DNA of 64,000 nt from NCBI GenBank assembly GCA_018334055.1, contig JAGXSS010000107.1:42211-106210 (forward strand), read 5' to 3'. Shown here piece after piece: positions 320-43,531 of the stretch. This stretch comes from Peptococcaceae bacterium. Lineage in GTDB: Bacteria; Bacillota; UBA994. The notes under the pieces were generated by a model. That model was not told where the DNA came from, searched no databases, and saw nothing but the letters and a program-made list of their open reading frames with translations. Position 1 is the first letter of the stretch. Each line of letters starts with the position of its first letter. The position numbers were made by a program, and so were the translations under genes.

Positions 320-397
320 TGGTCGGGCTGACAGGACTTGAACCTGCGACCTCTTGCACCCCAAGCAAGCGCGCTAGCCAAACTGCGCTACAGCCCG
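320..397 (-). tRNA. tRNA-Pro (anticodon GGG)
   Basis: The reverse complement folds as a cloverleaf: acceptor CGGGCTG/CAGCCCG, D-stem GCGC/GCGC, anticodon stem CTTGC/GCAAG with loop TTGGGGT (anticodon GGG), T-stem GCAGG/CCTGT with T-loop TTCAAGT, discriminator A and an encoded CCA. It is 78 nt long. Confidence 0.8.
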
Positions 398-8496: not shown

Positions 8497-8548
8497 CCGT
8501 TTTTGTTTCAGAAAATCAAAAACACGCCGCAATATAGCGGCGTGTTTC
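8497..8548 (-). terminator. Rho-independent terminator downstream of ispH-rpsA
   Basis: The hairpin is AAACACGCCGCtatatTGCGGCGTGTTT, followed by TTTGATTTTCTG on the minus strand. Confidence 0.65.
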
Positions 8549-8556
8549 AGTAAGAT

Positions 8557-10620
8557 CTACGATTTTTGATCTTTGAGCAAGTCTCCGAATTTATCCCCCA
8601 AGGTTACCTTGCTTTCTTCGCGGTAACTCTGGTTGCGATCGTCACGCCCACGTTTCTCGCCACGGTCACGCCGCTCACCCTTGTCCGGGCGTTCTGTGCG
8701 CTCCGTGCGCGGACGATCAACCGCCTCTTTTATGGAAAGGCTGACTCGATGTTCTGCGGGAACAATCGAAAGAATCTTCACGGTGACCTCATCACCAGGC
8801 TTGACGGCGTCCTCGGTCCTTTCAACCCGCTCGTGAGAGAGTTGAGAAATATGCACTAGCCCCTCAATACCGGGGGCAATTTCGACAAAGGCCCCGAAAC
8901 TTGCCGTACGCACAATCTTACCTGGAACTACCGAGCCCGGTGTGAACTTCTCGGTAAGCTTGTTCCATGGATCGCCCTCGCCCTGCTTGATACTGAGTGA
9001 GACTCTACCTTTTTCGCGGTCCACCCCAAGAACCTTGACCCGCACGGCCTGACCCTCAGTGAGAGCCTCCGACGGATGATTAACTCTCTGCCAGGCAATC
9101 TCGGAGACATGGACTAAACCGTCAATCCCCCCAAGGTCCACAAAGGCACCGAAATCGGTGAGTCTTTGGACTGTACCATCGCGCAGACTACCAACGACCA
9201 AGGAGTCCCAAGTCTTTGACTTAATTTCCTCAGTCTTCTTCTCTAAAGCCTCCTTGCGCGAGACAACCACCCGACGTCGAGCCTCTTCGATTTCTTTAAC
9301 CACTATAGAGATGGTCTGACCAACATACGAGGCCAGGTCAGGAACATAGCGTAGGTCAACATGGGAGGCTGGCATAAAAGTCTTGACACCGAGCACCTCG
9401 ACCATGACGCCACCCTTGACAGCCTCTAAGATCTTCCCTTGCAAGATGCGGCCTGTATCGCGGGCCGTAGCTAAGTCCTTCATGCCCTGCTCCTCCAGCG
9501 CCCGACGCCGCGAAAGCAAAACCTTATCTTCCTTCGAGTCGATGCGGAGCACAACGGCCACTACGGTTTCGCCGACCTGGCAAACATCAAGAGGGCTGCG
9601 CTCGGGGTCATTGCTGAGTTCATTTTTTGCTATGTAAGCTTCCGACTTGTGACCGATATCTACACCAACACCCTCGGCATCAACGCTAACCACCTTGCCC
9701 TCGACTACCTGACCGCGCTTAAGATTCGGGACAGTGATTGTCTCTTGTTGGGGATCTTCCCCAACAACTGTCTCTTGCTCACCTAGCGCTTTGTTCTCCA
9801 TGTTCTCCATCGCAACGACGACCTCCTTAATGTTCCATTCAGGGGTGGAGGCACCCGCGGCCACTCCGACAAGTTCAATACCAATGAACCAATCGCTCTG
9901 TAGCTCCAGGGCTCCCTCTACCTGATAAGTGGGTGTGCCCACCGACCGGCATATGTCAGCTAGATTTCTGGTATTAGCACTATTATTCCCGCCCACAACT
10001 ACCATTATATCCGCTTCTCTGGCCAATTCATAGGTGGCTTGCTGTCTTTCTTGCGTTGCCCGACAAATAGTTTCTATCGGCTTCACCTTTCGACCTTGTG
10101 CCTGCAAACATTCTACCACAGTCTGCCACAGAATAGGAGAGGTAGTTGTTTGTGCCAGGACGGCAACCTCAGCTTTTATGGGAATTACATCCAAATCAGC
10201 TGGGGTCTGCACCACAAAGGGGATGCCGCCTGCGTGGGCCAGTACGGCCTCAATCTCGGGGTGATGCCTATCCCCCACTATAACTACATCCATACCTGCT
10301 GCAATTGCGTGACGTGTCTCCTTCTGTAAGCGCAAGACGTGGGGGCAGGTAGCATCGATGATTTTTACACCTTTCTCAATGGCTGCTTGATAAACATTCG
10401 GCGCAGCGCCATGAGAACGAATGAGCAGGGTGGCTCCCTTCTCTATCTCCGACAAAGAAATTTGCCTAAGCCCGGCTTGCTCTAATCTCTGCACTACTCC
10501 GGGGTTATGGACGACGGGACCCAAGGAAAACCCATGTTCGCGCGCCACTTTTTCGGCCTGCACAATGGCGCGCCGTACACCAGCGCACATACCTGTTGGT
10601 TCCACGACGATGACTTTCAT
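8557..10620 (-). CDS. ispH-rpsA: Bifunctional 4-hydroxy-3-methylbut-2-enyl diphosphate reductase (IspH/LytB) fused to ribosomal protein S1 (four S1 domains)
   Basis: The N-terminal ~280 aa are IspH (MKVIVVEPTGMCAGVRRA..., Cys ligands). S1 repeats follow (GQVVEGKVVSVDAEGVGVDIG..., GAFVDLGGIDGLVHVSEIA..., GAFVEIAPGIEGLVHISQLS). The tail is highly charged (RPRTERTERPDKGERRDRGEKRGRDDR). The start forms an ATGA overlap with plsC. Confidence 0.9.
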   Translation of the reverse strand: MKVIVVEPTGMCAGVRRAIVQAEKVAREHGFSLGPVVHNPGVVQRLEQAGLRQISLSEIEKGATLLIRSHGAAPNVYQAAIEKGVKIIDATCPHVLRLQKETRHAIAAGMDVVIVGDRHHPEIEAVLAHAGGIPFVVQTPADLDVIPIKAEVAVLAQTTTSPILWQTVVECLQAQGRKVKPIETICRATQERQQATYELAREADIMVVVGGNNSANTRNLADICRSVGTPTYQVEGALELQSDWFIGIELVGVAAGASTPEWNIKEVVVAMENMENKALGEQETVVGEDPQQETITVPNLKRGQVVEGKVVSVDAEGVGVDIGHKSEAYIAKNELSNDPERSPLDVCQVGETVVAVVLRIDSKEDKVLLSRRRALEEQGMKDLATARDTGRILQGKILEAVKGGVMVEVLGVKTFMPASHVDLRYVPDLASYVGQTISIVVKEIEEARRRVVVSRKEALEKKTEEIKSKTWDSLVVGSLRDGTVQRLTDFGAFVDLGGIDGLVHVSEIAWQRVNHPSEALTEGQAVRVKVLGVDREKGRVSLSIKQGEGDPWNKLTEKFTPGSVVPGKIVRTASFGAFVEIAPGIEGLVHISQLSHERVERTEDAVKPGDEVTVKILSIVPAEHRVSLSIKEAVDRPRTERTERPDKGERRDRGEKRGRDDRNQSYREESKVTLGDKFGDLLKDQKS

Positions 10621-11195
10621 TGCAAAGAGTCCCTGAGTTTCTTGATATGAGACATGAGGTTCTCAGCGGCCAGTGCTCTACTATATGGCTCAGGAGAGAG
10701 GGATGACAGTTCCACGGCCTCGCCAATGACAACCCTTACCCTTTTCCCCAAACGATATTCACCCCAGATAGCTGCAGGAACTATGGGCACTTTAGTCCTC
10801 TCAGCTAGTAGGATGACGCCATTGGTCGGGGCTGACATTTCGAGTGTCTTACTCCGCGTGCCCTCGGGGAAGATACCCAGCACCTCACCACCGCTCAGAA
10901 TAGTTAGGCTACGCTTTATTGCCTGTATGTCCGCACTACCACGCTTGACCGGAAAGGCCCCAGCTTTCTTCGCTAGGAAGCCAAGAAATGGCCAAGAAAA
11001 AATCTCCGCTTTCGCCATAAAGCGAATAGGTCGCTCTACCGCCAGGGCAATCAACACAGGGTCAAAAAGGTGGATATGATTGGCGCATACAATGACACCG
11101 CCGGCAGCGGGCACCCGGCCACGGCCAACTACTTCCACCCGGAACAGAAGCCGCACTATCCAACCCGCCAGGAATCTTATTATTTTATATGGCAT
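10617..11195 (-). CDS. plsC: 1-acyl-sn-glycerol-3-phosphate acyltransferase
   Basis: It has the NHxxxxD motif (CANHIHLFDPV) and the FPEGTRS motif, and is 192 aa long. Confidence 0.85.
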   Translation of the reverse strand: MPYKIIRFLAGWIVRLLFRVEVVGRGRVPAAGGVIVCANHIHLFDPVLIALAVERPIRFMAKAEIFSWPFLGFLAKKAGAFPVKRGSADIQAIKRSLTILSGGEVLGIFPEGTRSKTLEMSAPTNGVILLAERTKVPIVPAAIWGEYRLGKRVRVVIGEAVELSSLSPEPYSRALAAENLMSHIKKLRDSLQ

Positions 11196-12225
11196 CTTTC
11201 TTCCTCGCTATGATATCCAAAATATGGCTAATCACCATTTCCACCTCTAAGTTAGTAGTGTCGACAATAACCGCATCGCTGGCTGGGCGGAGTGGCGAGA
11301 CCGCACGATGGCTATCGAAGTAGTCTCTCTGCTCAATTTGCAGAACAACTGCCTCGAGATCGACATCATGTCCTAAGGCGCGTAGCTCCACAAGGCGCCG
11401 CCGGGCTCGTTCTCGAGGATCAGCAACAAGAAAAATCTTCACGGGGGCATCTTTGAGTACGGTTGTACCAATATCTCGTCCATCCATGACTATCCCTCCG
11501 CGCAGCGCTAGCTTCCGTTGCTTTTCGACAATAACTTCGCGCAGTTCTTCATAGCTCGAAACTAACGAGACGGAGACATTAACCAGAGGGGTACGAATCT
11601 CATTTCCTAACACTCTTCCGTCAAGGGTCAGCTGCGAATCGGCATTGAGGTCGAAAATCATTTCCCTTGCTAAGCGACTCAAGATTGCCGCATCCTGCAG
11701 GTCCACTCCTTGCGAAAGTGCCAACCAAGTCACGGCTCGATACATGGCTCCAGTGTCCAAGTAACGAAGTCCCATCCGGAGAGCTATGCCCTTGGCGACC
11801 GTACTTTTACCGGCACCAGCGGGGCCGTCAATGGCTACATTTAGCATGCCGAAGGTCTGTACCCCCACTAGGTCTGGTCGCAGTCCTACGGCGCCCCGCA
11901 AATAGATATGTTTCACACTGTCACGGTGTCGACCGTTGTCAACAAAAACCACAACCCGCACACACAGTCTCGGTGCACCGACAACTTCAATTTCCTGAGC
12001 CCCCAAAAGTGGAACTGCAGAGAGACCAATTGCACGCGCTGCCTCTGCCGGGAATGCAGCGTTGATATCTGGGGTTGCAGTAAAGATTATGTTGACAATT
12101 TCACTCTCGCGCACAGCATTCTCTTTCATTATCAGGGCGAGCATCTCAGTTGTCGCCTCTAAAATGTGAGCCCGTGTATTCTGTTCGCAGGTCGTTGCTC
12201 CCCTTATAGCAATAATTATATTCAC
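11185..12225 (-). CDS. aroH-cmk: Fusion protein: AroH-type chorismate mutase (N-terminal ~120 aa) plus cytidylate kinase Cmk (C-terminal ~225 aa)
   Basis: The N-terminus NIIIAIRGATTCEQNT...ATPDINAAFPAEAARAIG...RVVVFVDNG...VGLRPDL matches AroH (IRGIRGATT...LRPDL). The continuous frame then runs into MLNVAIDGPAGAGKSTVAKGIALRMGLRYLDTGAMYRAVT, the canonical Cmk N-terminus with a P-loop. The start is GTG. Confidence 0.8.
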   Translation of the reverse strand: MNIIIAIRGATTCEQNTRAHILEATTEMLALIMKENAVRESEIVNIIFTATPDINAAFPAEAARAIGLSAVPLLGAQEIEVVGAPRLCVRVVVFVDNGRHRDSVKHIYLRGAVGLRPDLVGVQTFGMLNVAIDGPAGAGKSTVAKGIALRMGLRYLDTGAMYRAVTWLALSQGVDLQDAAILSRLAREMIFDLNADSQLTLDGRVLGNEIRTPLVNVSVSLVSSYEELREVIVEKQRKLALRGGIVMDGRDIGTTVLKDAPVKIFLVADPRERARRRLVELRALGHDVDLEAVVLQIEQRDYFDSHRAVSPLRPASDAVIVDTTNLEVEMVISHILDIIARKKDAI

Positions 12226-12270: not shown

Positions 12271-13500
12271 TTAGTTCTCCATGGAGGCAATTTGTCCTGC
12301 CAATGCCCCTGTGCTCCAGGCGATTTGCAGGTTGAAACCGCCAGTATACCCATCAACATCGAGCATTTCTCCGGCAAAAAAGAGGCCTCGAACTAACTTT
12401 GACTCCATAGTGCGGGGATCTACTTCAGCTGTGCTCACCCCGCCCCCGGTGACAATAGCTTCGTCTATCGGTCGAGTGCGGGTGACTGTTAGCGAGATAT
12501 TCTTCAGGAGAAAACTCAATTGTTCACGTTCAAGCCGGGTTACTTGGTTCACCGGTCGTTCATGTGGGATTCTAGAAAGTCTGGCCACGACGGGAATCAA
12601 AGAAGCAGGCAATAAATCACCTAGACTATTACCGAAGTATTTTTTCCCATGCAGCGCAAAATCTCGCTGTAATCGCAACTGCAACGCATCCTGGGACAGT
12701 GCAGGCTTAAGGTCAAGAAGCAAGGGGACATGACCGGACGCCAGCTTCCCCCTCAGGCGACTGCTGAGGGACAAAACAATCGGTCCACTTATCCCAAAGT
12801 GAGTGAACAACATTTCACCAAATTCTTGCCCAAAAGGAGCTGTAAGCTGCACATTTTTTAAACTGAGCCCCTGAACCTCTCGCACCCATGGTTCAGCAAC
12901 CTCTAAAGGAACCAGAGCAGGACTAATTGGCACAATGCTGTGCCCAAGGGCCTTAGCCATAATGTACCCATCTCCGGAAGAGCCGGTGCGTGGATATGAG
13001 GCCCCACCGGTCGCCAATATGACCTTATCGGCCGTTAAAGCACCTCTTCCACCAGTGCATTCAAGCGAAAACTGACCGTTGTCCATTTTATACATATTGC
13101 TCACTCGCGAATCTAAGCACACACGCACTTTGAGACGATATAACTCGCCAGACAACTGCTGAATAACCTGTAGCGCCGAGTCGCTAACGGGGAAGACCCT
13201 GTTCCCTCTCTCAACGGCAAGCTGCACTCCAATACCTTCAAAAAAGGACATTGTTGCTGGGCTGTCTAGATAGTTGAATGCGCTATACAAAAAACGGCCG
13301 TTGGTGGGCACATTGGACACCAGCTCCTTCGCTGAGCAGGCATTTGTAATGTTGCAACGGCCCTTCCCAGTGATAGCTAATTTTACTCCCGCTCGATGGT
13401 TTCGCTCTATCACAGTCACCGCTGCTCCTCCGCGAGCAGCGAAGATTGCTGCCATCATACCGGCTGCACCGCACCCAACTACCACCACCTGCCTAGGCAT
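12271..13500 (-). CDS. NAD(P)/FAD-dependent oxidoreductase, HI0933/YhiN (BaiN-like) flavoprotein family
   Basis: MPRQVVVVGCGAAGMMAAIFAARGG is an FAD-binding GxGxxG N-terminus. I moved the start to the ATG at 13500. The track start at 13542 lies 50 nt inside rluB. Confidence 0.75.
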   Translation of the reverse strand: MPRQVVVVGCGAAGMMAAIFAARGGAAVTVIERNHRAGVKLAITGKGRCNITNACSAKELVSNVPTNGRFLYSAFNYLDSPATMSFFEGIGVQLAVERGNRVFPVSDSALQVIQQLSGELYRLKVRVCLDSRVSNMYKMDNGQFSLECTGGRGALTADKVILATGGASYPRTGSSGDGYIMAKALGHSIVPISPALVPLEVAEPWVREVQGLSLKNVQLTAPFGQEFGEMLFTHFGISGPIVLSLSSRLRGKLASGHVPLLLDLKPALSQDALQLRLQRDFALHGKKYFGNSLGDLLPASLIPVVARLSRIPHERPVNQVTRLEREQLSFLLKNISLTVTRTRPIDEAIVTGGGVSTAEVDPRTMESKLVRGLFFAGEMLDVDGYTGGFNLQIAWSTGALAGQIASMEN

Positions 13501-14221
13501 GCCGAACGGTGCCAACAAACTTGTAGAGTTCGTCCACTTCACTAGGCGAGAGATGACGATGCGCTCCCAGTGGTAAATCAGCGAGCGTCAGCGGGCCGAT
13601 AGACAATCGCTTGAGAAAGATAACGCTTAGGCCCACCGCCATACACATGCGTCGAATTTGCCTATTGCGCCCTTCATAAATTGTCAATAAGAAAGATGTG
13701 GCTGATGGGCAATAGCTTACTGAATCTACTCTCGCTGGGGCAGTAGGACCATCAGGTAAGTCCACACCTCCCTGAAGCAAAGCAATGGTTTCTTGGGTGA
13801 GGAATCCAGAGACCTCGACATAGTAGGTCTTGGCGATTTGCTGTGAAGGGTGCAAGAGTTTATTGCACAAATCGCCGTCATTAGTTAAGAGTAACAGTCC
13901 TTCGGTATCCTTGTCTAACCTGCCGACAGGATACAGTCTCACCTTGAGGTCAGGAAGCAGGTCAAGTACGGTCTTTCTATCATGGGTATCTTTAACCGTT
14001 GTCACATAGTCGCGCGGCTTATGCACCAAAATATAGGCTTTTTTCTCAGGCGAGCTGAGGGGGCTGCCATCTACGCTAACCGTATCCCCTGCCCCTACTT
14101 TCGCCCCAATGCCCGCAACGTGGCCATTAATCTGTACCCTGCCGGCCAGCACGAGCTGCTCAGCGGCGCGACGTGACGCCACACCATGTTGCGCCAATAC
14201 TTTGTGAATCCGGCTCATCAT
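13493..14221 (-). CDS. rluB: 23S rRNA pseudouridine synthase (RluB/RsuA family) with N-terminal S4 domain
   Basis: It has an S4 domain (HKVLAQHGVASRRAAEQLVLAGRVQING) and the catalytic YPVGRLDKDTEGLLLLTNDG. The ATG at 14221 forms an ATGA overlap with the dapB stop. Confidence 0.85.
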   Translation of the reverse strand: MMSRIHKVLAQHGVASRRAAEQLVLAGRVQINGHVAGIGAKVGAGDTVSVDGSPLSSPEKKAYILVHKPRDYVTTVKDTHDRKTVLDLLPDLKVRLYPVGRLDKDTEGLLLLTNDGDLCNKLLHPSQQIAKTYYVEVSGFLTQETIALLQGGVDLPDGPTAPARVDSVSYCPSATSFLLTIYEGRNRQIRRMCMAVGLSVIFLKRLSIGPLTLADLPLGAHRHLSPSEVDELYKFVGTVRHA

Positions 14222-15089: not shown

Positions 15090-15548
15090 TTATTCAACTT
15101 CCACGATCATCTCCACCTCTACAGCGGCACCTAGTGGGAGTCCCGAAACTCCGACCGCTGCCCTTGCGTGCACTCCCCTCTCGCCAAACACAGACTGCAA
15201 GAGTTCCGATGCCCCATTAATCACCTTTGGCTGGTCGCCAAAGGTGGGCAGACTAGAGACAAAACCTGTCACTTTGACAATGCGCTTGACTTTGTCGAGA
15301 TTAGGCTCTATGGTTTTTATCGCCGCGATACAGTTGATTGCACAAATTCGTGCGGCCTCATAGGCAGAACCTAGGTCTATCTCCTGCCCGACAATGCCCC
15401 TAAACTGTAACTCACCCTTAACCAAGGGGAGCTGACCGGAGACAAAGATCAGGTTTCCGGACCGCACAGCAGGCACATACGCAGCTACAGGTTTCGCCGC
15501 TTCAGGAATAACAAGTCCAAGATCGTGTAGTCGGGCGTCAACAGACAT
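15090..15548 (-). CDS. ridA: RidA/YjgF-family reactive-intermediate (enamine/imine) deaminase
   Basis: The 152-aa product contains VSGQLP and a conserved C-terminal region ARAAVGVSGLPLGAAVEVEMIVEV. The SD is strong (GCAAGGGGG). Confidence 0.8.
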   Translation of the reverse strand: MSVDARLHDLGLVIPEAAKPVAAYVPAVRSGNLIFVSGQLPLVKGELQFRGIVGQEIDLGSAYEAARICAINCIAAIKTIEPNLDKVKRIVKVTGFVSSLPTFGDQPKVINGASELLQSVFGERGVHARAAVGVSGLPLGAAVEVEMIVEVE

Positions 15549-15616: not shown

Positions 15617-16120
15617 TCAATTATAGAGATGATGCGTGAGGAGGAGCGCCGCTCCCACGGTAACTAGGTCAGATAAGAGACCAACCAATAGACTGTGCCT
15701 AATTTTTTTCACGCCTATAGCCCCAAAGTACACGGTTATAACATATAGCGTGGTGTCACTGCTGCCTTGGATGGCGGATGCCACCATCCCCACGAAGGAG
15801 TCTGGACCATAGGTCGAGAGAATTCCCTGCGCCACCACCAGAGAACCGCTACCGGTGAGTGGGCGCAAAATGGCTAAAGGAACGACCTCCTTGGGCATGC
15901 CCACATGTTCGGCCAAAACACCCATGCTCTGTTCAATAAGTCGCAACAGACCTGATGCTTGCAAAAGATTTACGGCAATAATCATCGCGAGGATATAGGG
16001 GAAGAGACGAACAACAGTAGATATCCCCTGCCTAGCCCCTTCGATGAACTCTTCAAAGACCTGCACCCGCCTGAGCAGTCCCGCCCCCACTATAACCATA
16101 CAAACAATGAGGATTATCAC
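15617..16120 (-). CDS. spmB: Spore maturation protein B
   Basis: The 167-aa product is membrane/nucleoside-transporter-like. It is the last gene of dacB-spmA-spmB. The GTG start overlaps the spmA stop. Confidence 0.75.
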   Translation of the reverse strand: MIILIVCMVIVGAGLLRRVQVFEEFIEGARQGISTVVRLFPYILAMIIAVNLLQASGLLRLIEQSMGVLAEHVGMPKEVVPLAILRPLTGSGSLVVAQGILSTYGPDSFVGMVASAIQGSSDTTLYVITVYFGAIGVKKIRHSLLVGLLSDLVTVGAALLLTHHLYN

Positions 16121-16701
16121 GGCCTGAAATACCTGCGAAGTGCCCGGTCAGCGATCAAGCCGACAACCAAACCGGCAAGGCTAGCCAACAAAGTCACCCC
16201 GATGATGGCCATTGGGTTTTCACTTCCAGCGGCTAACCGAATGCCCACCAAAGTAGCTGGGAATAGTGTGACCCCGGTCGTATTGAGCACTATCAGAGTA
16301 CACATGGCATCGGTCGCGGTGTCCTTACGGAGGCTACCGGCTTGCATCACTCGCATTGCCTCAAGACCCAACGGTGTGGCGGCATTGCCTAAACCAAAAA
16401 GCGTAGCACAGACATTCGACACAATTAGCGAGAGAATAGGCTCATTGCTTCTTAGTGAAGGGAACAGTATGACAAAAATCGGCCGGAAAACTCGCGCCAA
16501 AGCCTTGATCAGCCCGGCTTTCTCAGCTATACGATTTATCCCCGACCAAAAAGCGACCGTTCCTGCTAGGCCCAGTGTCAGGGCAATCGCCTGCTCTCCA
16601 CTTCTAGCCAAGGAATTGGCTACCCCCTCTGCGTCTTTGCCCCCAACGAGGACATAGCCGATGCAAAGAATTACGGTTACTCCCCAGATTGCATTCATCA
16701 T
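16117..16701 (-). CDS. spmA: Spore maturation protein A
   Basis: MMNAIWGVTVILCIGYVL is the SpmA-type N-terminus. The start forms an ATGA overlap with the dacB stop. Confidence 0.75.
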   Translation of the reverse strand: MMNAIWGVTVILCIGYVLVGGKDAEGVANSLARSGEQAIALTLGLAGTVAFWSGINRIAEKAGLIKALARVFRPIFVILFPSLRSNEPILSLIVSNVCATLFGLGNAATPLGLEAMRVMQAGSLRKDTATDAMCTLIVLNTTGVTLFPATLVGIRLAAGSENPMAIIGVTLLASLAGLVVGLIADRALRRYFRP

Positions 16702-17840
16702 GTAATGTGCACCAAGGGCCAAAGGACAAACTTAGCGTAACTTACTATGTGACGAGCCAAAAACCGCAACCAAGAGCGTTCGCGTGATGCCTGGTCACTC
16801 AGGAGCGGCACACGGCCCACAATTTCGCCGTTAAACTCGATCAACAGCTCTCCTATTTTTTGGAGGGCGAATAGCGGAGGTCGGACACTTGTTGGGAGCT
16901 CCACAGTCATAAGAGGAGCGCTCTCCTCACTTTTCGCCTGCACCCACCAGTAATCATGTGCTGCCACCACTCCGATGTAAGCAGGCTGACCACCTACGAC
17001 GGCAACATAACCTTTGAACAAGCCGCGCTGCACCATCAAATGCGGGCGAAAATTGGCAAACCCCCACTGCAAGAGAGCAAGGGTCTCCCCGTAGTGGTCT
17101 GGCGAATTCAGTACAATGCAAAGCAGTTGCCAGCCAGAATATGTGGCCGAAGAAGCCAGACAGTGCCCTGCTGCCCTAGTCCAACCAGTCTTAATGCCAT
17201 CTGCGCCAGCCTTGATTTGGAGCAAACGATTTTTGTTATGCCAGATGCGCGGAGCCTCGATTGCGTCCTGCCTTACCGCAAAACGCTCTGTCCGCACTAC
17301 GACACGGAGGAAGGGGTCCTTAAGCACCGCTCGCGCAATTAAAGCTAAGTCATAGGCAGAGGAGAAATGGTCAGGGTGGTGTAGTCCATGGGGATTGACG
17401 AAATTTGTGTTCATGGCGCCCAGATTCTGGGCCCGATTATTCATCTGCACACTGAAGTCCGGAAGACTACCCGCAAGGAAGTAGGCAATCGTCTGGGCGG
17501 CGTCATTACCAGATCGTAGCATGAGACCATAGACTAAGCTACGCAAGGTAATCATTTCACCGGGGATAAGCCAGATGTTACTCGCCTCAACTGCTATCCA
17601 TTCCGGTCTTATCGTGATAATTTCGTCTAAGCGCCCACTTTCAGCGGCCAGTAAGGCGGTCATCTTCTTAGTTAGGCTGGCCATGGGTCTCCTCTGGTGA
17701 ATGTTGTTACCATAGAGGACTCTGCCACTTTCAACATCCATGACTATGGCGGCGGAAGCATCTATGCTGAGGGCAGCAGAGTTCGCCAACGGACCAAAAA
17801 AAATCAGCACGATTGCCATGAGGAGAGCCTTTATCCGCAA
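16698..17840 (-). CDS. dacB: D-alanyl-D-alanine carboxypeptidase (S11, PBP5*-type; sporulation-specific DacB)
   Basis: It has the SxxK motif (ASLTKKMT), SGND and KTG motifs, and a signal anchor. I moved the start to the TTG at 17840, which has a perfect AAGGAGGTG SD. The track start at 17903 is a GTG without an SD. Confidence 0.8.
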   Translation of the reverse strand: MRIKALLMAIVLIFFGPLANSAALSIDASAAIVMDVESGRVLYGNNIHQRRPMASLTKKMTALLAAESGRLDEIITIRPEWIAVEASNIWLIPGEMITLRSLVYGLMLRSGNDAAQTIAYFLAGSLPDFSVQMNNRAQNLGAMNTNFVNPHGLHHPDHFSSAYDLALIARAVLKDPFLRVVVRTERFAVRQDAIEAPRIWHNKNRLLQIKAGADGIKTGWTRAAGHCLASSATYSGWQLLCIVLNSPDHYGETLALLQWGFANFRPHLMVQRGLFKGYVAVVGGQPAYIGVVAAHDYWWVQAKSEESAPLMTVELPTSVRPPLFALQKIGELLIEFNGEIVGRVPLLSDQASRERSWLRFLARHIVSYAKFVLWPLVHIT

Positions 17841-17941
17841 ATAGGTGCACCTCCTTAGCTTCCATAAAGTATATGGAGCGCGGGAAACACCTAGCACATG
17901 CACAAAAGAGGCTCAAGGCCTCTTTCTAGAAAACTTGCTAT

Positions 17942-20943: not shown

Positions 20944-23565
20944 TCAATTTCCTCCTTTTTGAATGCGTTCGAGGAGCCTATCCAAGTATTCCAGCTCATC
21001 TTCACGACTTGAGACGCGTCTTTCTAGGTGCGCTTTCTTTAACTCCCTTAGCAATCTGCCGAGTAGCGGCCCTGGAGCAACGCCACGCTCGATGAGATCT
21101 TGGCCACTCAAAGAGCCCTTGGCCGGGCCAAGCGCATGCATTAGCCCGAGCTTTTTAGCCCCTTCCTGGCCGGCGAGGGCAGCAATAAGCAGTCTAGATT
21201 CGGCATGTAGAACGTCGTACTTGAGGAGGAGGTCAGCGGGAGTAGACTCGGTATCTGTCAAACCGCGCACTAATTCTTCCGCATGCTCCATTACTTCAAG
21301 TGCCACATCTCGCGCCTTACGCGAGAGTCTAAGGCTATCAACTAAGGCCGGCCATTCAGATGTCGGCCTGTAGAGCAGCAAAATAACACAGTACACCGCA
21401 AGATGGTCCATATTGGAAAGGTCTGCCTGAGAAACGCTACGTAAAACTTCTATCTGCCGGTCGGTTAACCTTAAGTTCGGCAGTATATGGGACCATATGC
21501 CGAGCTCATCCATGCGCAAAATAGCTTTGGGGGCCGAAACTTCTGCGAAAAGTAAGCGGAGCTCATCACGCAGTTTCTCTCTTGAGACTTTTTCCAGCAC
21601 GCCGTTTTCCAAGGCATTCCGAAGAAAGCGCTCAGATTGTTCCTCCAAGGCAAAACCATAGCGCTGTTCAAAACGAACTGCTCGAATAATGCGTGTCGGG
21701 TCCTCAACAAAGCTGAGGTTGTACAATACTCTTACTAAACCCAATTTAAGATCTTCTCGACCGCCATAAAAATCGAGTAAATTGCCAAAAAGGTCTGGAT
21801 TTAGTGGCACCGCCAAGGTATTTATAGTAAAGTCACGGCGATAGAGATCTTGCCGAATTGTGGCATACTGTACATCTGGTAAGGCGGCAGGCATGGCATA
21901 AAATTCAGTACGGGCCGTAGCGAAGTCGATTTGTTCTCCCGCTGGCAGAGTCAAAGTTGCCGTACCGAATTTTGGGTAATCCACGCATGTTGCGTTGAGT
22001 CTTTTTGCCATAACCTTGGCAAAAGGAATGGCCTCCGGTTCAACTACGAGGTCTATGTCTACATTTGGATGAGCAAGCATGATATCTCTTACCAGCCCAC
22101 CGACCAAGTAGGCCTTGGCGCCTTGCCTTTCTGCCTCCTGCCCGATCAATAACAATAGCCCCATGGCTTTCTTGCCTAGGTGCTCCTCAAGAAGGGAATT
22201 GATATTTGGGGCGGTTAAGTCGTCATTCTCAGGCTGAGACCGATATGTAACCTGGTACCAGTGGGGATAACTCTTGCCATGTAAGGTGCGCAATACATCA
22301 GTGCGCGTAACAATGCCAATTACCGCTCCCAAGGCGTCGACAACCGGCAGCCTCCCGATGTCCTTCACCATCATGAGTCTCTGCACTTCATCCATAGAAG
22401 AGTCTGCTGATACTGTTACTACGACCGTAGACATGAAGCCTTTGACCGGGGCATTTTGCAAGCCGTGGTGGTTAGCTTTGTCGAGGTCGCGTCGAGAGAT
22501 AATGCCAATGAGTCGACTGTCCTGCACCACGGGCAAACCGCTGTGACCACTGCGCAGCATGGTGTGCCCTGCCTCTTCCATGGTAGTTTCTGGATTAACG
22601 CTCTTTACCGGGGTGCTCATAATATCTTTAGCCCTAAGAGGTGGCTCTATCACTAACGGCAGTATTTGTTCAATTATACCTAGTAGCTCTTCTACCCCCT
22701 TTCCTTTGACTGTAGCGGCTGCCGCCTGCCGATGGCCACTGCCACCAAAATGCCGCATCAGGGCATGCATATTTACCCTGTCGTTTTTACTACGTCCCAC
22801 CAGGTGTACTCGGCCATCCATATTCACTACGACAATGCAGGCGTCACAATCATCTATCTCGGACAATCGTGAAGCCAGCACAGCCAGTCCATCTACATAT
22901 TCATTGATCTCGCATGAGGTCAGCCTAACTTTCGCTTCTTTCACAGTCATTTCGCGAGATGCCGTGAGTAACTCTTCAAACAGCGAGCGCTGTCCATCGC
23001 TGAGAGGGCTGCGCACATAGCTGGCTATGACCTCCAGATTGGCCTTTTGGGCGAGGAGGTAGGACACAGCCTTGGCATCACGAGTTGAAGTCGTCCCGGT
23101 CGTCAAGCAACCAGTATCGGAATAAATGGCTACCGCCATGACAGTGGCCTGTGCCGGAGTAAGGAACAAACCCCTTGCTTCTATTTCTTCCACTAACAAG
23201 GTTGTGGTAGCGCCGACCTGTTCAACTTGGATTTTAGCCCGGGCTGGAATACTACTGCTTAACGGATGATGGTCAATGATTGTCAGACGAACTTCATCAT
23301 TTTGAAACACAGGCCTAAACTTCCCGATGCGCTCTTGACTCTGCGTATCAAGCACGACCAAGTGGGATATCTCTTGCACATTGATATGGTCAGGGGAGGT
23401 CAAATTTAGGCTGTCTTTGTAAAGAGAATAGAGCTCGCGCACTTTCTTGTTGATATGACCGGGGAAACACACAAGCGCCCTAGGTCTGAGCAATTTTGCT
23501 GCTACTAACGACCCTAGGGCGTCAAAGTCAGCATTACTGTGACTTACTACAACCTCCACCCACAC
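20944..23565 (-). CDS. Multidomain protein: DHH/DHHA1 phosphoesterase + tandem CBS + class-II nucleotidyltransferase (poly(A) polymerase/CCA-adding enzyme head) + C-terminal region
   Basis: The domains are DHH (HSNADFDALGS, IIDHHP), DHHA1 (FGGSGHRQAAAA), two CBS modules, and a PolA head (AYLVGGLVRDIMLAHPNVDIDLVVE, the GGxVRD signature). The total is 873 aa with a GTG start. Confidence 0.8.
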   Translation of the reverse strand: MWVEVVVSHSNADFDALGSLVAAKLLRPRALVCFPGHINKKVRELYSLYKDSLNLTSPDHINVQEISHLVVLDTQSQERIGKFRPVFQNDEVRLTIIDHHPLSSSIPARAKIQVEQVGATTTLLVEEIEARGLFLTPAQATVMAVAIYSDTGCLTTGTTSTRDAKAVSYLLAQKANLEVIASYVRSPLSDGQRSLFEELLTASREMTVKEAKVRLTSCEINEYVDGLAVLASRLSEIDDCDACIVVVNMDGRVHLVGRSKNDRVNMHALMRHFGGSGHRQAAAATVKGKGVEELLGIIEQILPLVIEPPLRAKDIMSTPVKSVNPETTMEEAGHTMLRSGHSGLPVVQDSRLIGIISRRDLDKANHHGLQNAPVKGFMSTVVVTVSADSSMDEVQRLMMVKDIGRLPVVDALGAVIGIVTRTDVLRTLHGKSYPHWYQVTYRSQPENDDLTAPNINSLLEEHLGKKAMGLLLLIGQEAERQGAKAYLVGGLVRDIMLAHPNVDIDLVVEPEAIPFAKVMAKRLNATCVDYPKFGTATLTLPAGEQIDFATARTEFYAMPAALPDVQYATIRQDLYRRDFTINTLAVPLNPDLFGNLLDFYGGREDLKLGLVRVLYNLSFVEDPTRIIRAVRFEQRYGFALEEQSERFLRNALENGVLEKVSREKLRDELRLLFAEVSAPKAILRMDELGIWSHILPNLRLTDRQIEVLRSVSQADLSNMDHLAVYCVILLLYRPTSEWPALVDSLRLSRKARDVALEVMEHAEELVRGLTDTESTPADLLLKYDVLHAESRLLIAALAGQEGAKKLGLMHALGPAKGSLSGQDLIERGVAPGPLLGRLLRELKKAHLERRVSSREDELEYLDRLLERIQKGGN

Positions 23566-27708: not shown

Positions 27709-28878
27709 CTAGTTCAACAGACGTCGCCACAAGCGGTGAAAAAATATCCAAGCGGGGGCGCGTGGTACCGTTTGCGTGGCCAAGAGGTCGACGCTAGCCA
27801 CCACATTGCCGTCTTTTAAGACAGAAAAACGTCCCACAATTTGGCCTACATGGACAGGTGCCTCCACGATAAAGAACTCTCGCTTCGTTTCCCAGACACT
27901 TTGGTTACCCTTCGTTTTCAAGATATCGAGATGCTCACGGGCATGGACCTTGACACTTTGGAGAGTGCCCTTATCAATTGGTGCCGCGCCAACTTCCTGG
28001 CCTCGCTCGACCACACGCCTCCCCTCATAGGTGGCGAAACCGTAGTCTAGGAGTCGTACAATGTCGGTGTTCCGCTCCGCGGGAGATGTGCCCCCGAGCA
28101 CAACAGCAATGAGCCGCAAGCCACCCCTCTTGGCAGTTGCCGACAAGCACCAGCCAGCTCGTGTCGTCCAGCCGGTCTTTAATCCATCGTAACCTGGATA
28201 CGAAGTCAACAGATGGCGATTAGTATTGGCAAGCATGCTCCGCAGTCCAGCCCTCTGGAGATGAGTCAATCGAATGGCAGAGTAATCATGCACGCGCTCG
28301 TGATGCAGCAAGGCCCTGGTCATTAGCGCCACATCATAGGCCGATGAATACGCTCCGCCGATATCTAGACCACAAGCAGTAGTGAATTTAGTATTCTGCA
28401 TGCCAAGCTGCTGTGCTCTATCATTCATCAAGGCAACGAACCCAGGCTCACTCCCAGCTACAAACTCCCCTAAAGCCACAGCGGCATCGTTCGCAGATAC
28501 AATAGCTACCGCTAAGAACAGCTGTTCTACGGTGAGAGTTTCCCCCTCTTTTAGCCAAATCTGAGAGCCGCCATACTGTGCTGCATGACTACTGATGCGC
28601 ACCACATCGTCCCAACCAATACGTTCTGTTTCGATAGCCTCAAAAACCAATAACATCGTCATTATCTTAGTTAGACTGGCGATAGGCTTCCTCTCGTGTT
28701 CGTCCCTAGCCAGCAAAATTGTGCCGGTGCCCATGTCCATGAGCAAGGCCTGTGGCACGCGCAGGGCCAGAGCTAGGGCCATCGCCGGTAAGCTCGGTTG
28801 CGCAGTATGACCAAGTGGTAGATAAACTAAGCAAACGCAAAGAAACAGTACGGCCACTCGGAAAAGTCGCTGTGACAC
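27709..28878 (-). CDS. dacF: D-alanyl-D-alanine carboxypeptidase (S11), forespore-type DacF
   Basis: It has the SxxK motif (ASLTKIMT), SAND and KTG motifs. It sits immediately upstream of spoIIAA as in B. subtilis. The GTG start has a GAGGAGG SD. Confidence 0.8.
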   Translation of the reverse strand: MSQRLFRVAVLFLCVCLVYLPLGHTAQPSLPAMALALALRVPQALLMDMGTGTILLARDEHERKPIASLTKIMTMLLVFEAIETERIGWDDVVRISSHAAQYGGSQIWLKEGETLTVEQLFLAVAIVSANDAAVALGEFVAGSEPGFVALMNDRAQQLGMQNTKFTTACGLDIGGAYSSAYDVALMTRALLHHERVHDYSAIRLTHLQRAGLRSMLANTNRHLLTSYPGYDGLKTGWTTRAGWCLSATAKRGGLRLIAVVLGGTSPAERNTDIVRLLDYGFATYEGRRVVERGQEVGAAPIDKGTLQSVKVHAREHLDILKTKGNQSVWETKREFFIVEAPVHVGQIVGRFSVLKDGNVVASVDLLATQTVPRAPAWIFFHRLWRRLLN

Positions 28879-33979: not shown

Positions 33980-35047
33980 TTATTCTCGGTAGTTAACCGA
34001 AATCCTGCGTTTCTCACTATGTTTAGCCCTGGCCAGAAAAATGAGTTCGCTAATCAATTTTGGGTAACTCGTACCTGTAGCCTCCCACATTTTAGGGTAC
34101 ATGGAAATGTTAGTAAATCCCGGCATGGTATTAAGCTCGTTTACGTAGATCTGGCCTGTAGGGGTGAGGAAAAAATCAACCCTCGCTAGGCCTGAGCAAT
34201 CTAAGGCTTGATACACCCGCAGTGACAGCTCCTGCACTTGTCTAACTTGTTGCGGTGTCAAATTGGCCGGTATGTAGAGTGTAGATGGCTCCTCATACTT
34301 AGCGGTGTAGCTGTAAAAATCAGCATTAGGGACCACCTCCCCTGGCAAAGAGGCGCGAGGTTGTTCATTGCCCAGAACGCTGCATTCTATTTCCCGACCC
34401 TTGGCCTGTTGTTCTACTATGACCTTGCGGTCATACTTAAAGGCGACTTCAATAAAATGAGCCAGCGCATCATTATCTACCGCCTTATTGATGCCCACAC
34501 TTGAACCCATGTTAGCGGGCTTAACAAAACAGGGGAAACCCAGTCGCTCAGCAATATTATGGTGGTGCCTGTCAGGCTCTAAGGCATAACTATGATCAGT
34601 GAACCATACGAAATCCACCACCGGAATTCCTAGCTGTTTACAAATGGTTTTTTGCAGAATTTTGTCCATTCCTAGGGCAGAGCTCATAACTCCTGAACCA
34701 ACATAAGGAATATCCAAAATCTCCAGTAACCCCTGAATACTGCCATCTTCCCCATATGGTCCGTGCAGGACGGGGAAAACCACATCCCCTTGCATCAGGA
34801 TTTCGACAATAGGACCGACCCCCACCTCCCCCTCCGGCTCGACTACAGCAGATTCGTTGCGGGCGAGCATCGCCCGCGGATCAACCCCGGCAATCCACCT
34901 GCCGCGCTTAGTTATGCCAACAGGGATGGGGACAAACTCCTTTTCATCTATAGCGCTTATGACCGAGACTGCGGACTGCACAGAAACCTCATGTTCAGCA
35001 GATCGTCCACCGAAAAGGATAATGACGCGTTGTTTCAACCTTTCCAC
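33980..35047 (-). CDS. ddl: D-alanine--D-alanine ligase
   Basis: VIILFGGRSAEHEVS is the Ddl N-terminus and an ATP-grasp C-terminus follows. Length is 355 aa. Confidence 0.85.
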   Translation of the reverse strand: MERLKQRVIILFGGRSAEHEVSVQSAVSVISAIDEKEFVPIPVGITKRGRWIAGVDPRAMLARNESAVVEPEGEVGVGPIVEILMQGDVVFPVLHGPYGEDGSIQGLLEILDIPYVGSGVMSSALGMDKILQKTICKQLGIPVVDFVWFTDHSYALEPDRHHHNIAERLGFPCFVKPANMGSSVGINKAVDNDALAHFIEVAFKYDRKVIVEQQAKGREIECSVLGNEQPRASLPGEVVPNADFYSYTAKYEEPSTLYIPANLTPQQVRQVQELSLRVYQALDCSGLARVDFFLTPTGQIYVNELNTMPGFTNISMYPKMWEATGTSYPKLISELIFLARAKHSEKRRISVNYRE

Positions 35048-36174: not shown

Positions 36175-36303
36175 GCTAGGACTCCTTGACTCAAAATTCA
36201 ACGTTAGGGGTCGAAAGAAGTCGGATATTGACCTCTTGGGTCTATTACCCAGGAAATGAGCTAAAGTGCTCTGCCCTTAGTCAATATACCATAAGTCTGA
36301 GGT

Positions 36304-41446: not shown

Positions 41447-41447
41447 T

Positions 41448-42356: not shown

Positions 42357-42368
42357 AAAACACCCCCA

Positions 42369-43451: not shown

Positions 43452-43531
43452 ACTCCTTCCTACGATGTCCCTTGACAATAATATAACTTCCACAGAGACA
43501 TAAAACACTTTAAAAGAAAATTGCGTGTTTT

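What the first reader, a model, noticed from the sequence alone, without database searches (positions are those of the whole stretch)
11185..12225. In-frame fusion of AroH-type chorismate mutase with cytidylate kinase
A single uninterrupted 346-codon frame encodes an AroH-like chorismate mutase (IRGATT ... LRPDL) directly joined to a complete Cmk (MLNVAIDGPAGAGKSTVAK...). The two enzymes belong to unrelated pathways (aromatic amino-acid biosynthesis and pyrimidine nucleotide salvage). Cmk is normally the first gene of the cmk-(plsC)-rpsA unit. The internal Met at the junction (…GVQTFGMLNVAIDGP…) could also allow stand-alone Cmk to be translated. This is either a genuine bifunctional protein or a 1-nt assembly error that removed a stop/start junction.
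Basis: partly seen in the sequence, partly recalled or inferred. Interest (0 to 1): 0.5.

Follow-up and report, generated by a model that had tools for sequence, protein, structure and literature searches.

The report
Chorismate mutase–CMP kinase gene fusion
Two neighbouring housekeeping genes, a small chorismate mutase (aroH) and CMP kinase (cmk), have merged into one reading frame here; the merger is real and recurs in many clostridial bacteria, so it is an ordinary neighbour-gene fusion whose main practical consequence is that databases label it only as "CMP kinase".

Summary
Window 11185-12225, on the minus strand, is one uninterrupted 346-codon ORF with a GTG start. It encodes a full-length AroH-type chorismate mutase (aa 5-119) and a full-length (d)CMP kinase (aa 130-340), joined by about 8 residues.

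It is not an assembly error. The identical fused ORF occurs on contigs from four separate assemblies. More than 100 protein clusters (40-72% identity, Clostridia/Bacillota MAGs) share the architecture.

Syntenic relatives carry separate aroH and cmk genes overlapping by 8-14 nt at the same spot. Their junction is 28 or 31 nt long, against 24 nt here, so an indel merged the frames. Bootstrapped Cmk trees need at least 2 fusion/fission events within this clade alone.

The AroH catalytic residues checked (Arg7, Arg63, Glu78, Arg90, Tyr108, Arg116 in B. subtilis numbering) and the Cmk P-loop and DGRDIGT motifs are conserved. AlphaFold gives two confident domains with a floppy linker. The junction Met is not conserved and lacks a well-spaced Shine-Dalgarno sequence.

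Cmk is also found fused to IspH, PlsC and EPSP synthase. I found no paper or curated family for AroH-Cmk, and named members are annotated only as "(d)CMP kinase". Interest is low.

The parts
11185..12225 (-). Fused aroH-cmk ORF, 346 codons plus stop, GTG start
11866..12225 (-). AroH-type chorismate mutase domain (aa 1-120) with Arg8, Phe58, Arg64, Glu78, Arg90, Tyr108, Leu115 and Arg116 (B. subtilis AroH Arg7, Phe57, Arg63, Glu78, Arg90, Tyr108, Leu115, Arg116)
   Evidence: Pfam and NCBIfam; residue alignment to PDB 1com; Foldseek TM 0.95-0.97, rmsd 0.7-1.0 A to 1com/2cht/1ode
11842..11865 (-). Inter-domain linker (aa 121-128, VGVQTFGM). Residues 121-124 have pLDDT below 50. This is the hypervariable junction where the frames merged.
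11845..11847 (-). Internal ATG (Met127). It aligns with the start Met of one stand-alone relative (P0045) but is not conserved in the other fusions aligned. The G-run lies 14 nt upstream, which is poor SD spacing.
11185..11841 (-). (d)CMP kinase domain (aa 129-346) plus stop codon. P-loop GPAGAGKS at aa 134-141 (nt 11803-11826); DGRDIGT at aa 248-254.
10617..11195 (-). plsC-like 1-acylglycerol-3-phosphate acyltransferase. Its start overlaps the cmk stop by 11 nt, consistent with translational coupling.
8557..10620 (-). ispH-rpsA fusion (bifunctional HMBPP reductase / ribosomal protein S1), 4-nt overlap with plsC. Last gene of the unit.
   Evidence: NF000907, 715.7 bits vs cutoff 624
8519..8548 (-). 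Intrinsic-terminator-like hairpin (12 pairs, 7 GC, followed by a T-rich tail) ending the unit
12271..13542 (-). Upstream HI0933-like / aminoacetone-oxidase-family flavoprotein, 45 nt from the aroH-cmk start. Probably the same transcription unit (inferred).

Best explanation
This is a genuine gene fusion encoding a bifunctional protein: an N-terminal AroH-type chorismate mutase (chorismate to prephenate) and a C-terminal (d)CMP kinase (CMP/dCMP + ATP to CDP/dCDP). It arose when a small indel in the short, hypervariable junction between two adjacent, overlapping, translationally coupled genes (aroH>cmk) put them in the same frame and removed the aroH stop codon. The fused gene sits in a tightly packed unit, (dapB>rluB>flavoprotein>) aroH-cmk > plsC > ispH-rpsA, that ends at a strong terminator. 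The two domains most likely fold and act independently through a flexible linker of about 8 residues. The AroH part should trimerise like all solved AroH enzymes, so the protein is expected to be a trimer carrying three Cmk domains. The fusion most likely fixes 1:1 co-expression of neighbouring genes rather than creating a metabolic channel. SHOWN: the ORF, both complete domains, conserved catalytic residues, recurrence of the fusion, unfused syntenic relatives, and the junction indel. INFERRED: both activities, trimerisation, the absence of functional coupling, and co-transcription.
For: One ORF with both full-length domains above curated cutoffs. The identical fused ORF is on contigs from ENA assemblies ERZ27300243, ERZ27300247 and ERZ27300241 and JGI 3300025516. 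More than 100 clusters share CM_1+Cytidylate_kin at 334-376 aa and 40-72% identity. About 28 of the top 150 50%-identity representatives align end to end. Syntenic relatives have separate genes: L005/L006 (Peptococcaceae MAG GCA_018333435) have aroH of 128-129 aa and cmk of 227 aa with a 14-nt overlap. L090 (Bacillota MAG GCA_035464215) has an 8-nt overlap. L009, L018 and L025 are adjacent but unfused, while L008, L010 and L011 are fused. The junction is 24 nt here against 28 and 31 nt in unfused relatives, a difference of one frame. The bootstrapped Cmk tree needs 2 (21%) or 3 (79%) fused/unfused changes and never fewer. Among 26 fusions, Arg8, Arg64, Arg90 and Arg116 are invariant and Glu78 and Tyr108 are at least 90% conserved, and these map onto B. 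subtilis AroH in the 1com alignment. The E61 (for Lys60) and G75 (for Cys75) substitutions have precedent: the solved Thermus chorismate mutase chain 1ode has Glu and Ser at these positions. AroH and Cmk halves are similarly conserved between window and relatives: 58 vs 62%, 41 vs 45%, 38 vs 41%. The AlphaFold model has mean pLDDT 89.9, a linker below 50 and pTM 0.65. Foldseek gives Cmk TM 0.85-0.90 and AroH TM 0.95-0.97, and no PDB chain spans both. Cmk is also fused to IspH, PlsC, EPSP synthase, LspA, a HAD hydrolase and UvrC in other organisms. The neighbouring ispH-rpsA is itself a known fusion.
Against: No biochemical, proteomic or read-level data were available. Activity of either half is inferred from sequence only. 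Trimer formation with a C-terminal 25-kDa appendage close to the active-site residues Leu115 and Arg116 was not modelled. Designed cage and crystal proteins built on an AroH-type trimer appear among the PDB matches, but that is only indirect reassurance. Cys75 of the B. subtilis enzyme is Gly here. The SD before the GTG start is weak, and automatic gene callers chose Met28 instead. Whether the organism has another chorismate mutase is unknown; none was found among 61 of the 65 ORFs of at least 90 aa in this window.
Confidence: 0.82

Rival explanations
1. Assembly or sequencing artefact: a 1-nt error removed the aroH stop and cmk start junction, and the organism really has two genes.
For: Close relatives do have two overlapping genes at this position. 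The difference between fused and unfused junctions is a small indel in a variable stretch.
Against: The identical fused ORF appears on contigs from four assemblies built by two pipelines. Six more cluster representatives at 65-72% identity (P0002-P0006) or 55% (P0009) carry the fusion with different junction sequences. The junction differs from the relatives by 4-7 nt plus many substitutions, not by a single base.
Confidence: 0.02
2. Dual output: besides the 38-kDa fusion, ribosomes also start at the internal ATG (Met127) and make stand-alone Cmk of about 24 kDa.
For: Met127 aligns exactly with the start Met of the stand-alone Cmk P0045 (MINVAIDGP). A G-rich run (GTGGGGGT) lies upstream.
Against: In the A2 alignment of 26 fusions, none of the other 25 has Met at this position; they have R/W/K/C-x-I-N-I and similar. 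The G-run ends 14 nt before the ATG. Unfused relatives have proper sites: AAGGA 8 nt before TTG, GGAGG 9 nt before TTG, AGGAGG 5 nt before ATG. The promoter-like scan is at chance level, 8 found against 6.5 expected.
Confidence: 0.12
3. The AroH half is no longer an enzyme and serves only as a trimerisation or regulatory (chorismate/prephenate-sensing) module for Cmk. This would resemble the chorismate-mutase-like regulatory domains of some DAHP synthases (from my own knowledge; not tested here).
For: The partners are metabolically unrelated. Lys60 to Glu and Cys75 to Gly differ from the B. subtilis enzyme. Some fusions have almost no linker, e.g. LRPDLAK-LTIAIDGP, which would hold Cmk close to the AroH active site.
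Against: The catalytic Arg8, Arg64, Arg90 and Arg116 are invariant and Glu78 and Tyr108 nearly invariant in 26 fusions. TIGR01796 (an equivalog model) is passed at 118.9 vs 82 bits. Stand-alone AroH of the sister lineage has the same Gly75 (IPLMGAQE in L006). The solved Thermus chorismate mutase chain 1ode has Glu and Ser at the two variant positions.
Confidence: 0.05

Closest known systems
Monofunctional AroH chorismate mutase (B. subtilis 1com/2cht; Thermus thermophilus 1ode/1ufy; Clostridium thermocellum 1xho)
   Same: The N-terminal 120 residues align over the full length (E about 1e-25 to 1e-26). All residues checked are retained except Lys60 and Cys75. The predicted fold superposes at 0.7-1.0 A.
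   Different: The known enzymes are stand-alone proteins of about 120-130 aa with a free, flexible C-terminal tail. Here that tail is replaced by a linker leading into Cmk.
Bacterial (d)CMP kinase Cmk (M. smegmatis 3r20, S. aureus 2h92, E. coli 1cke/1kdo)
   Same: The C-terminal 218 residues align over the full length (E 7e-51 to 3r20). The P-loop and DGRDIGT motifs are invariant. TM 0.85-0.90. The gene has its usual genomic place ahead of plsC and rpsA.
   Different: It carries an N-terminal enzyme domain.
EPSP synthase-Cmk fusion (NCBIfam PRK11860, 'bifunctional 3-phosphoshikimate 1-carboxyvinyltransferase/cytidylate kinase')
   Same: A shikimate/aromatic-pathway enzyme is fused N-terminally to Cmk (P0205 and P0258). 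It reflects the old aroF(EPSPS)>cmk>rpsA synteny described in PMC1173090.
   Different: The partner is a different enzyme (a 430-aa EPSP synthase rather than a 120-aa AroH). The window protein scores 168 bits against a cutoff of 943, matching only the Cmk part.
Other neighbour fusions of Cmk and of this operon: PanC-Cmk (PRK13477), Cmk-Der (PRK09518), Cmk-IspH, Cmk-PlsC, IspH-RpsA (NF000907)
   Same: The same kind of event: adjacent genes of a housekeeping operon joined in frame. IspH-RpsA lies in the same operon in this window.
   Different: Different partners. The PanC-Cmk, Cmk-Der and IspH-RpsA fusions have curated bifunctional names, whereas AroH-Cmk has none. All named AroH-Cmk members are called only '(d)CMP kinase' or 'cytidylate kinase'.
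AroQ-type chorismate mutase fusions (P-protein AroQ-PheA, T-protein AroQ-TyrA, AroQ-DAHP synthase)
   Same: Chorismate mutase is fused to a second enzyme (from PMC1173090, and my own knowledge).
   Different: Those use the unrelated all-helical AroQ fold, and their partners belong to the same pathway, which gives an obvious metabolic logic. Here the fold is AroH and the partner belongs to pyrimidine nucleotide metabolism.

Membership tests
AroH-type chorismate mutase (Pfam CM_1 PF07736 / NCBIfam TIGR01796) | Full-length match above the curated thresholds | tested here: met
   PF07736 134.3 bits (cutoff 27), profile positions 2-116 of 116. TIGR01796 118.9 bits (cutoff 82).
AroH-type chorismate mutase (Pfam CM_1 PF07736 / NCBIfam TIGR01796) | Active-site residues Arg7, Arg63, Glu78, Arg90, Tyr108, Arg116 (B. 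subtilis numbering; residue roles are from my own knowledge of the 2cht literature) | tested here: met
   The alignment to 1com shows all six retained. Arg8, Arg64, Arg90 and Arg116 are invariant in 26 fusions, and Glu78 and Tyr108 are at least 90% conserved. Lys60 to Glu and Cys75 to Gly are substitutions also seen (as Glu and Ser) in the solved Thermus chorismate mutase chain 1ode.
AroH-type chorismate mutase (Pfam CM_1 PF07736 / NCBIfam TIGR01796) | AroH alpha/beta fold that forms a homotrimer with active sites at subunit interfaces | tested here: inconclusive
   The monomer fold matches (TM 0.95-0.97, rmsd 0.7-1.0 A). Trimer formation could not be modelled with the tools available.
AroH-type chorismate mutase (Pfam CM_1 PF07736 / NCBIfam TIGR01796) | Catalyses chorismate to prephenate | not testable with these tools
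   Needs an enzyme assay or complementation.
(d)CMP kinase Cmk (Pfam PF02224 / NCBIfam TIGR00017) | Full-length match above the curated thresholds | tested here: met
   PF02224 232.6 bits (cutoff 26), profile positions 1-210 of 211. TIGR00017 220.7 bits (cutoff 135.55).
(d)CMP kinase Cmk (Pfam PF02224 / NCBIfam TIGR00017) | P-loop GPxGxGKS and the NMP-binding motifs (YLDTGAMYR, DGRDIGT, RD..D) | tested here: met
   G134, P135, G137, G139, K140, S141, D157-A160, Y162, R163, G249-G253, R300, D301 and D304 are invariant in 29 fused and stand-alone sequences.
(d)CMP kinase Cmk (Pfam PF02224 / NCBIfam TIGR00017) | Cmk fold | tested here: met
   Foldseek TM 0.85-0.90 to 2h92, 3r20 and 4die.
Curated bifunctional Cmk fusions (PRK13477 PanC-Cmk, PRK11860 EPSPS-Cmk, PRK09518 Cmk-Der) | Whole-protein score above the family cutoff, i.e. 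both partner domains present | tested here: not met
   238 vs 524, 168 vs 943 and 166 vs 953 bits. Only the Cmk part of each profile is matched.
AroH-Cmk fusion architecture (unnamed; CM_1 + Cytidylate_kin in one chain) | Collinear end-to-end alignment with other proteins carrying both domains in the same order | tested here: met
   More than 100 clusters with 95-100% query coverage. About 28 of 150 top representatives align over residues 2-7 to 327-345. Single ORFs were verified at DNA level in L001-L004, L008, L010 and L011.

The most novel reading that the evidence does not exclude
The persistent pairing of an aromatic-pathway gene with cmk (aroH>cmk in Clostridia, EPSPS>cmk in Proteobacteria), repeatedly hardened into fusions, may reflect a real functional coupling rather than operon drift. 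For example, the AroH trimer could scaffold or allosterically control CMP kinase, with chorismate or prephenate level tuning CDP/CTP supply for the CTP-consuming, CMP-releasing phospholipid and MEP-isoprenoid steps encoded next door (plsC, ispH). Alternatively, Cmk could modulate chorismate mutase. Nothing here excludes this. The very short linkers of many Clostridiales fusions would hold Cmk right beside the AroH active-site residues Leu115 and Arg116.
Probability: 0.07. Interest if true: 0.55.

Novelty: new member of a known kind. Interest (0 to 1): 0.2.

Why it matters
Mainly for annotation. Every named member of this fusion family in public databases is called only "(d)CMP kinase" or "cytidylate kinase", and no NCBIfam bifunctional model exists for it. 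Metabolic reconstructions that rely on product names could therefore miss chorismate mutase and wrongly predict Phe/Tyr auxotrophy in many Clostridia, including gut and rumen MAGs. The automatic start call for this very protein (319 aa) also cuts off catalytic Arg8.

It is also a clean, small example of how overlapping, translationally coupled genes flip between fused and separate states through junction indels. At least 2 events are needed within one clade. It adds one more link to the unexplained old association of aromatic-pathway genes with cmk-rpsA. It opens no long-standing question, and a specialist would not be very surprised.

Tried and rejected
Most of the 80 loci are plain Cmk and none is close to the window, so it gave names for only a few fused lineages (Christensenella, 'Clostridia', Bacillota) and no census.
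2. Three loci reported as near-full-length matches are not fused. In L050 the upstream gene is NrdR. L018 and L025 have aroH and cmk in different frames. L009 also looked fused; there the two are in the same frame but separated by a TAA stop plus a new SD and TTG start.
3. Five completed literature searches for any description of an AroH-Cmk or chorismate mutase-cytidylate kinase fusion found nothing relevant, and a sixth, for the EPSPS-Cmk fusion, returned only an unrelated paper; a seventh attempt failed on query syntax. PMC12335128 only lists the two enzymes separately.
4. The promoter and terminator consensus scan was at chance level for promoters (8 found vs 6.5 expected), so no internal or dedicated promoter can be claimed.
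5. The Rfam gathering scan found only one tRNA. There is no T-box, riboswitch or leader near the gene.
6. I looked for another chorismate mutase or aromatic-pathway gene among 61 of the window's 65 ORFs of at least 90 aa and found none. This says nothing about the rest of the genome.
7. I considered programmed frameshifting in the unfused relatives as a route to a fused product. No slippery-site evidence was sought, and the idea was dropped as unsupported.
Full report
**1. The observation**

The ORF listing finds one ORF at 11185..12225 on the minus strand, 346 aa, with a GTG start. The sequence reads through ...HIYLRGAVGLRPDLVGVQTFGMLNVAIDGPAGAGKST... with no stop or frame change.

- Pfam places CM_1 (PF07736) on aa 5-119, covering profile positions 2-116 of 116 (E 3e-39).
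- Pfam places Cytidylate_kin (PF02224) on aa 130-340, covering 1-210 of 211 (E 5e-69).
- NCBIfam passes both equivalog models: TIGR01796 CM_mono_aroH at 118.9 vs 82 bits, and TIGR00017 cmk at 220.7 vs 135.55 bits.

The only addition is that the gene is on the minus strand.

The GTG at 12225 is the first start codon after the in-frame TAA at 12264-12262. Residues 4-12 (IIAIRGATT) are conserved in homologues. The database copy of this protein (P0001, 100% identical, 319 aa) was called from Met28. That start would delete the catalytic Arg8, so it is probably a mis-called start.

**2. Artefact or real**

The identical fused ORF is carried by 10 contigs. The four shown come from ENA assemblies ERZ27300243, ERZ27300247 and ERZ27300241 and from JGI metagenome 3300025516.

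The homology search returned more than 100 clusters with the same precomputed CM_1 + Cytidylate_kin architecture. They are 334-376 aa long, 40-72% identical, and cover 95-100% of the query. Where named, they come from Clostridiales, Defluviitaleaceae, Caldicoprobacterales and Bacillota MAGs.

In the exhaustive search of 50%-identity representatives, about 28 of the best 150 align end to end with the query.

At DNA level I verified single uninterrupted ORFs in L001-L004 (the window organism), L008 (Bacillota MAG), L010 (Clostridia MAG) and L011 (uncultured Christensenella). An assembly error is effectively excluded.

**3. Origin of the fusion**

The neighbourhood is conserved. It runs RidA-like > dapB > rluB > HI0933-like flavoprotein > aroH-cmk > plsC > ispH-rpsA > DUF1614 > spoIIP.

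Two stand-alone Cmk relatives, about 60-62% identical to the Cmk half, sit in the same synteny with a separate aroH directly upstream:

- L005/L006 (Peptococcaceae MAG GCA_018333435): aroH of 128-129 aa and cmk of 227 aa, with a 14-nt overlap and a TTG start.
- L090 (Bacillota MAG GCA_035464215): aroH of 121 aa and cmk of 224 aa, with an 8-nt overlap, ATGCATAA.

Between the conserved codons for LRPDLV and NVAIDG, the junction is 28 nt in L006 and 31 nt in L090. Both are 1 modulo 3, giving two frames. It is 24 nt in the window, giving one frame. The fusion is therefore a frame-merging indel in a short hypervariable junction between overlapping genes.

More distant Clostridia show the same pair in several states:

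| Locus | State |
|---|---|
| L008, L010, L011 | Fused |
| L009 | Stop codon + GGAGG + TTG start |
| L018 | 13-nt overlap |
| L025 (Tissierellales) | About 50-nt spacer with AGGAGG |

(All.) About 70 other genomes in the scan had no aroH within 4 kb of cmk.

In an NJ tree of the Cmk domain, fused and unfused forms interleave. In 100 bootstrap replicates of the window's clade, Fitch parsimony needs 2 (21%) or 3 (79%) state changes, and never fewer. The junction has therefore switched state repeatedly. The direction of each change (fusion or fission) is not resolved.

**4. Are both halves functional?**

The HMMER alignment to B. subtilis AroH (1com) shows these correspondences:

| B. subtilis AroH | Window protein |
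|---|---|
| Arg7 | Arg8 |
| Phe57 | Phe58 |
| Arg63 | Arg64 |
| Glu78 | Glu78 |
| Cys88 | Cys88 |
| Arg90 | Arg90 |
| Tyr108 | Tyr108 |
| Leu115, Arg116 | Leu115, Arg116 |
| Lys60 | Glu61 (substituted) |
| Cys75 | Gly75 (substituted) |

The solved Thermus thermophilus chorismate mutase chain (1ode) has Glu and Ser at the two substituted positions. The stand-alone AroH of L006 also has Gly75. These substitutions are therefore typical of the lineage and are not signs of decay.

Across 26 fusions, Arg8, Arg64, Arg90 and Arg116 are invariant, and Glu78 and Tyr108 are at least 90% conserved. The Cmk P-loop (GPAGAGKS), YLDTGAMYR and DGRDIGT motifs are invariant. The two halves diverge at similar rates: 58 vs 62%, 41 vs 45%, and 38 vs 41% identity.

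AlphaFold2 with the 26-sequence alignment gives mean pLDDT 89.9, with only residues 121-124 below 50, and pTM 0.65. This indicates two well-defined domains without a fixed mutual orientation.

Foldseek superposes the halves on Cmk structures (TM 0.85-0.90) and on AroH structures (TM 0.95-0.97, rmsd 0.7-1.0 A). No PDB chain covers both.

I infer that both activities are retained and that the protein trimerises through AroH. Neither point was tested.

**5. The internal Met**

Met127 (ATG at 11847-11845) aligns with the start Met of one stand-alone relative, P0045 (MINVAIDGP). In the A2 alignment of 26 fusions, none of the other 25 has Met there.

The only SD-like element, a G-run, ends 14 nt upstream of the ATG. 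Unfused relatives have well-placed sites: AAGGA 8 nt before TTG, GGAGG 9 nt before TTG, and AGGAGG 5 nt before ATG. Internal initiation cannot be excluded, but nothing supports it.

**6. Operon context**

- The cmk stop overlaps the plsC start by 11 nt, and plsC overlaps ispH-rpsA by 4 nt.
- A strong terminator-like hairpin follows ispH-rpsA at 8548-8519. Another lies at 15082-15066, after the RidA-like gene.
- The 45-nt gap before aroH-cmk has no convincing promoter. The promoter scan is at chance level.
- Rfam finds no regulatory RNA.
- I found no other aromatic-pathway gene or chorismate mutase among 61 of the window's 65 ORFs of at least 90 aa. The window is a typical endospore-former housekeeping and sporulation region, with spoIVA, der, gpsA, spo0A, spoIVB, spoIIIA, spoVA, dxs, recN and others.

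**7. Comparison with what is known**

Cmk is a frequent fusion partner. NCBIfam has curated bifunctional models for PanC-Cmk, EPSP synthase-Cmk and Cmk-Der. The representatives search also turned up Cmk-IspH, Cmk-PlsC, EPSPS-Cmk, LspA-Cmk, HAD-Cmk, UvrC-Cmk and Cmk-Cmk. IspH and PlsC are Cmk's operon neighbours in this window.

The next gene but one in this window, ispH-rpsA, is itself a recognised fusion (NF000907, 715.7 vs 624 bits).

The association of aromatic-pathway genes with cmk>rpsA is an old synteny documented by Song et al. 2005 (PMC1173090). That paper describes aroF(EPSPS)>cmk>rpsA, with lytB sometimes inserted. It does not mention an aroH-cmk fusion.

Five completed full-text searches found no paper describing the AroH-Cmk fusion. 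A sixth search, on the EPSPS-Cmk fusion, returned only an unrelated paper.

The window protein fails the whole-protein cutoffs of the curated bifunctional Cmk families, because only the Cmk part matches. It is therefore not a member of those families. It belongs to an unnamed but populous AroH-Cmk architecture that databases label simply "(d)CMP kinase".

**8. Verdict**

This is a real, recurrent neighbour-gene fusion. It most likely encodes an independently acting chorismate mutase and CMP kinase on one chain. It is ordinary in mechanism and already present, though unnamed, in sequence databases.

Its value is practical. The chorismate mutase activity is hidden behind a CMP-kinase product name, and the automatic start call is wrong. 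It is also a tidy illustration of switching between fused and overlapping gene states.

The most novel reading not excluded is a real regulatory or structural coupling between chorismate mutase and CMP kinase. I rate that at about 7%.

Noticed in passing
window 8557-10620 (-): A second fusion in the same operon: IspH (LytB) joined to four S1 domains, 687 aa. It passes NCBIfam NF000907 'bifunctional HMBPP reductase/30S ribosomal protein S1' (715.7 vs 624 bits). This is a known architecture.
   Followed up: yes
window 12145-12225 (-); protein P0001: Public gene calls for this exact protein start at Met28 (319 aa). That start omits the conserved IRGATT motif with catalytic Arg8. The GTG at 12225 is the better start.
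   Followed up: yes
L005 5188-5628 and L006 5195-5611: The unfused Peptococcaceae relatives carry an extra 138-146-aa ORF with no Pfam hit between the HI0933-like flavoprotein and aroH. It is absent from the window, which has only a 45-nt gap there.
   Followed up: no
window 15090-15548 (-): A 152-aa YjgF/RidA-like protein (PF14588 'YjgF/chorismate_mutase-like', PF01042) lies about 3 kb upstream, and this placement is conserved in relatives. It scores below the TIGR00004 Rid cutoff (50 vs 106 bits). It has the same fold class as AroH, but no link to the finding was established.
   Followed up: partly
window 20944-23565 (-): An 873-aa protein with DHH-DHHA1-CBS-CBS-PolyA_pol domains. Its best NCBIfam match is the A-adding tRNA nucleotidyltransferase model, but far below the cutoff (582 vs 1440 bits).
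   Followed up: partly
proteins P0137, P0151, P0152, P0155, P0232, P0257: Other Cmk fusions in public data: tandem Cmk-Cmk, LspA-Cmk, Cmk-IspH, Cmk-PlsC, HAD hydrolase-Cmk and UvrC-Cmk. Cmk appears unusually prone to fusing with whatever gene lies next to it.
   Followed up: partly
window 40370-43508 (-): Two acetate/butyrate-kinase-family genes flank a phosphate acetyl/butyryl-transferase gene (kinase-PTB-kinase), next to spo0A. Both kinase matches cover only the C-terminal part of the Pfam profile.
   Followed up: no
window 16698-17903, 27709-28878, 35035-36201 (-): Three Peptidase_S11 (D-Ala-D-Ala carboxypeptidase) paralogues lie within 20 kb, in a sporulation-gene-rich region.
   Followed up: no
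window 15959-16657 (+): A 232-aa plus-strand ORF with no Pfam hit. By comparison with the gene calls in L001 it probably lies opposite the real minus-strand spmA/spmB-like 'Gate' genes. It is likely a spurious ORF picked up by my greedy ORF selection.
   Followed up: no
window 323-397 (-): A single tRNA gene, the only Rfam gathering-level hit in the window.
   Followed up: no
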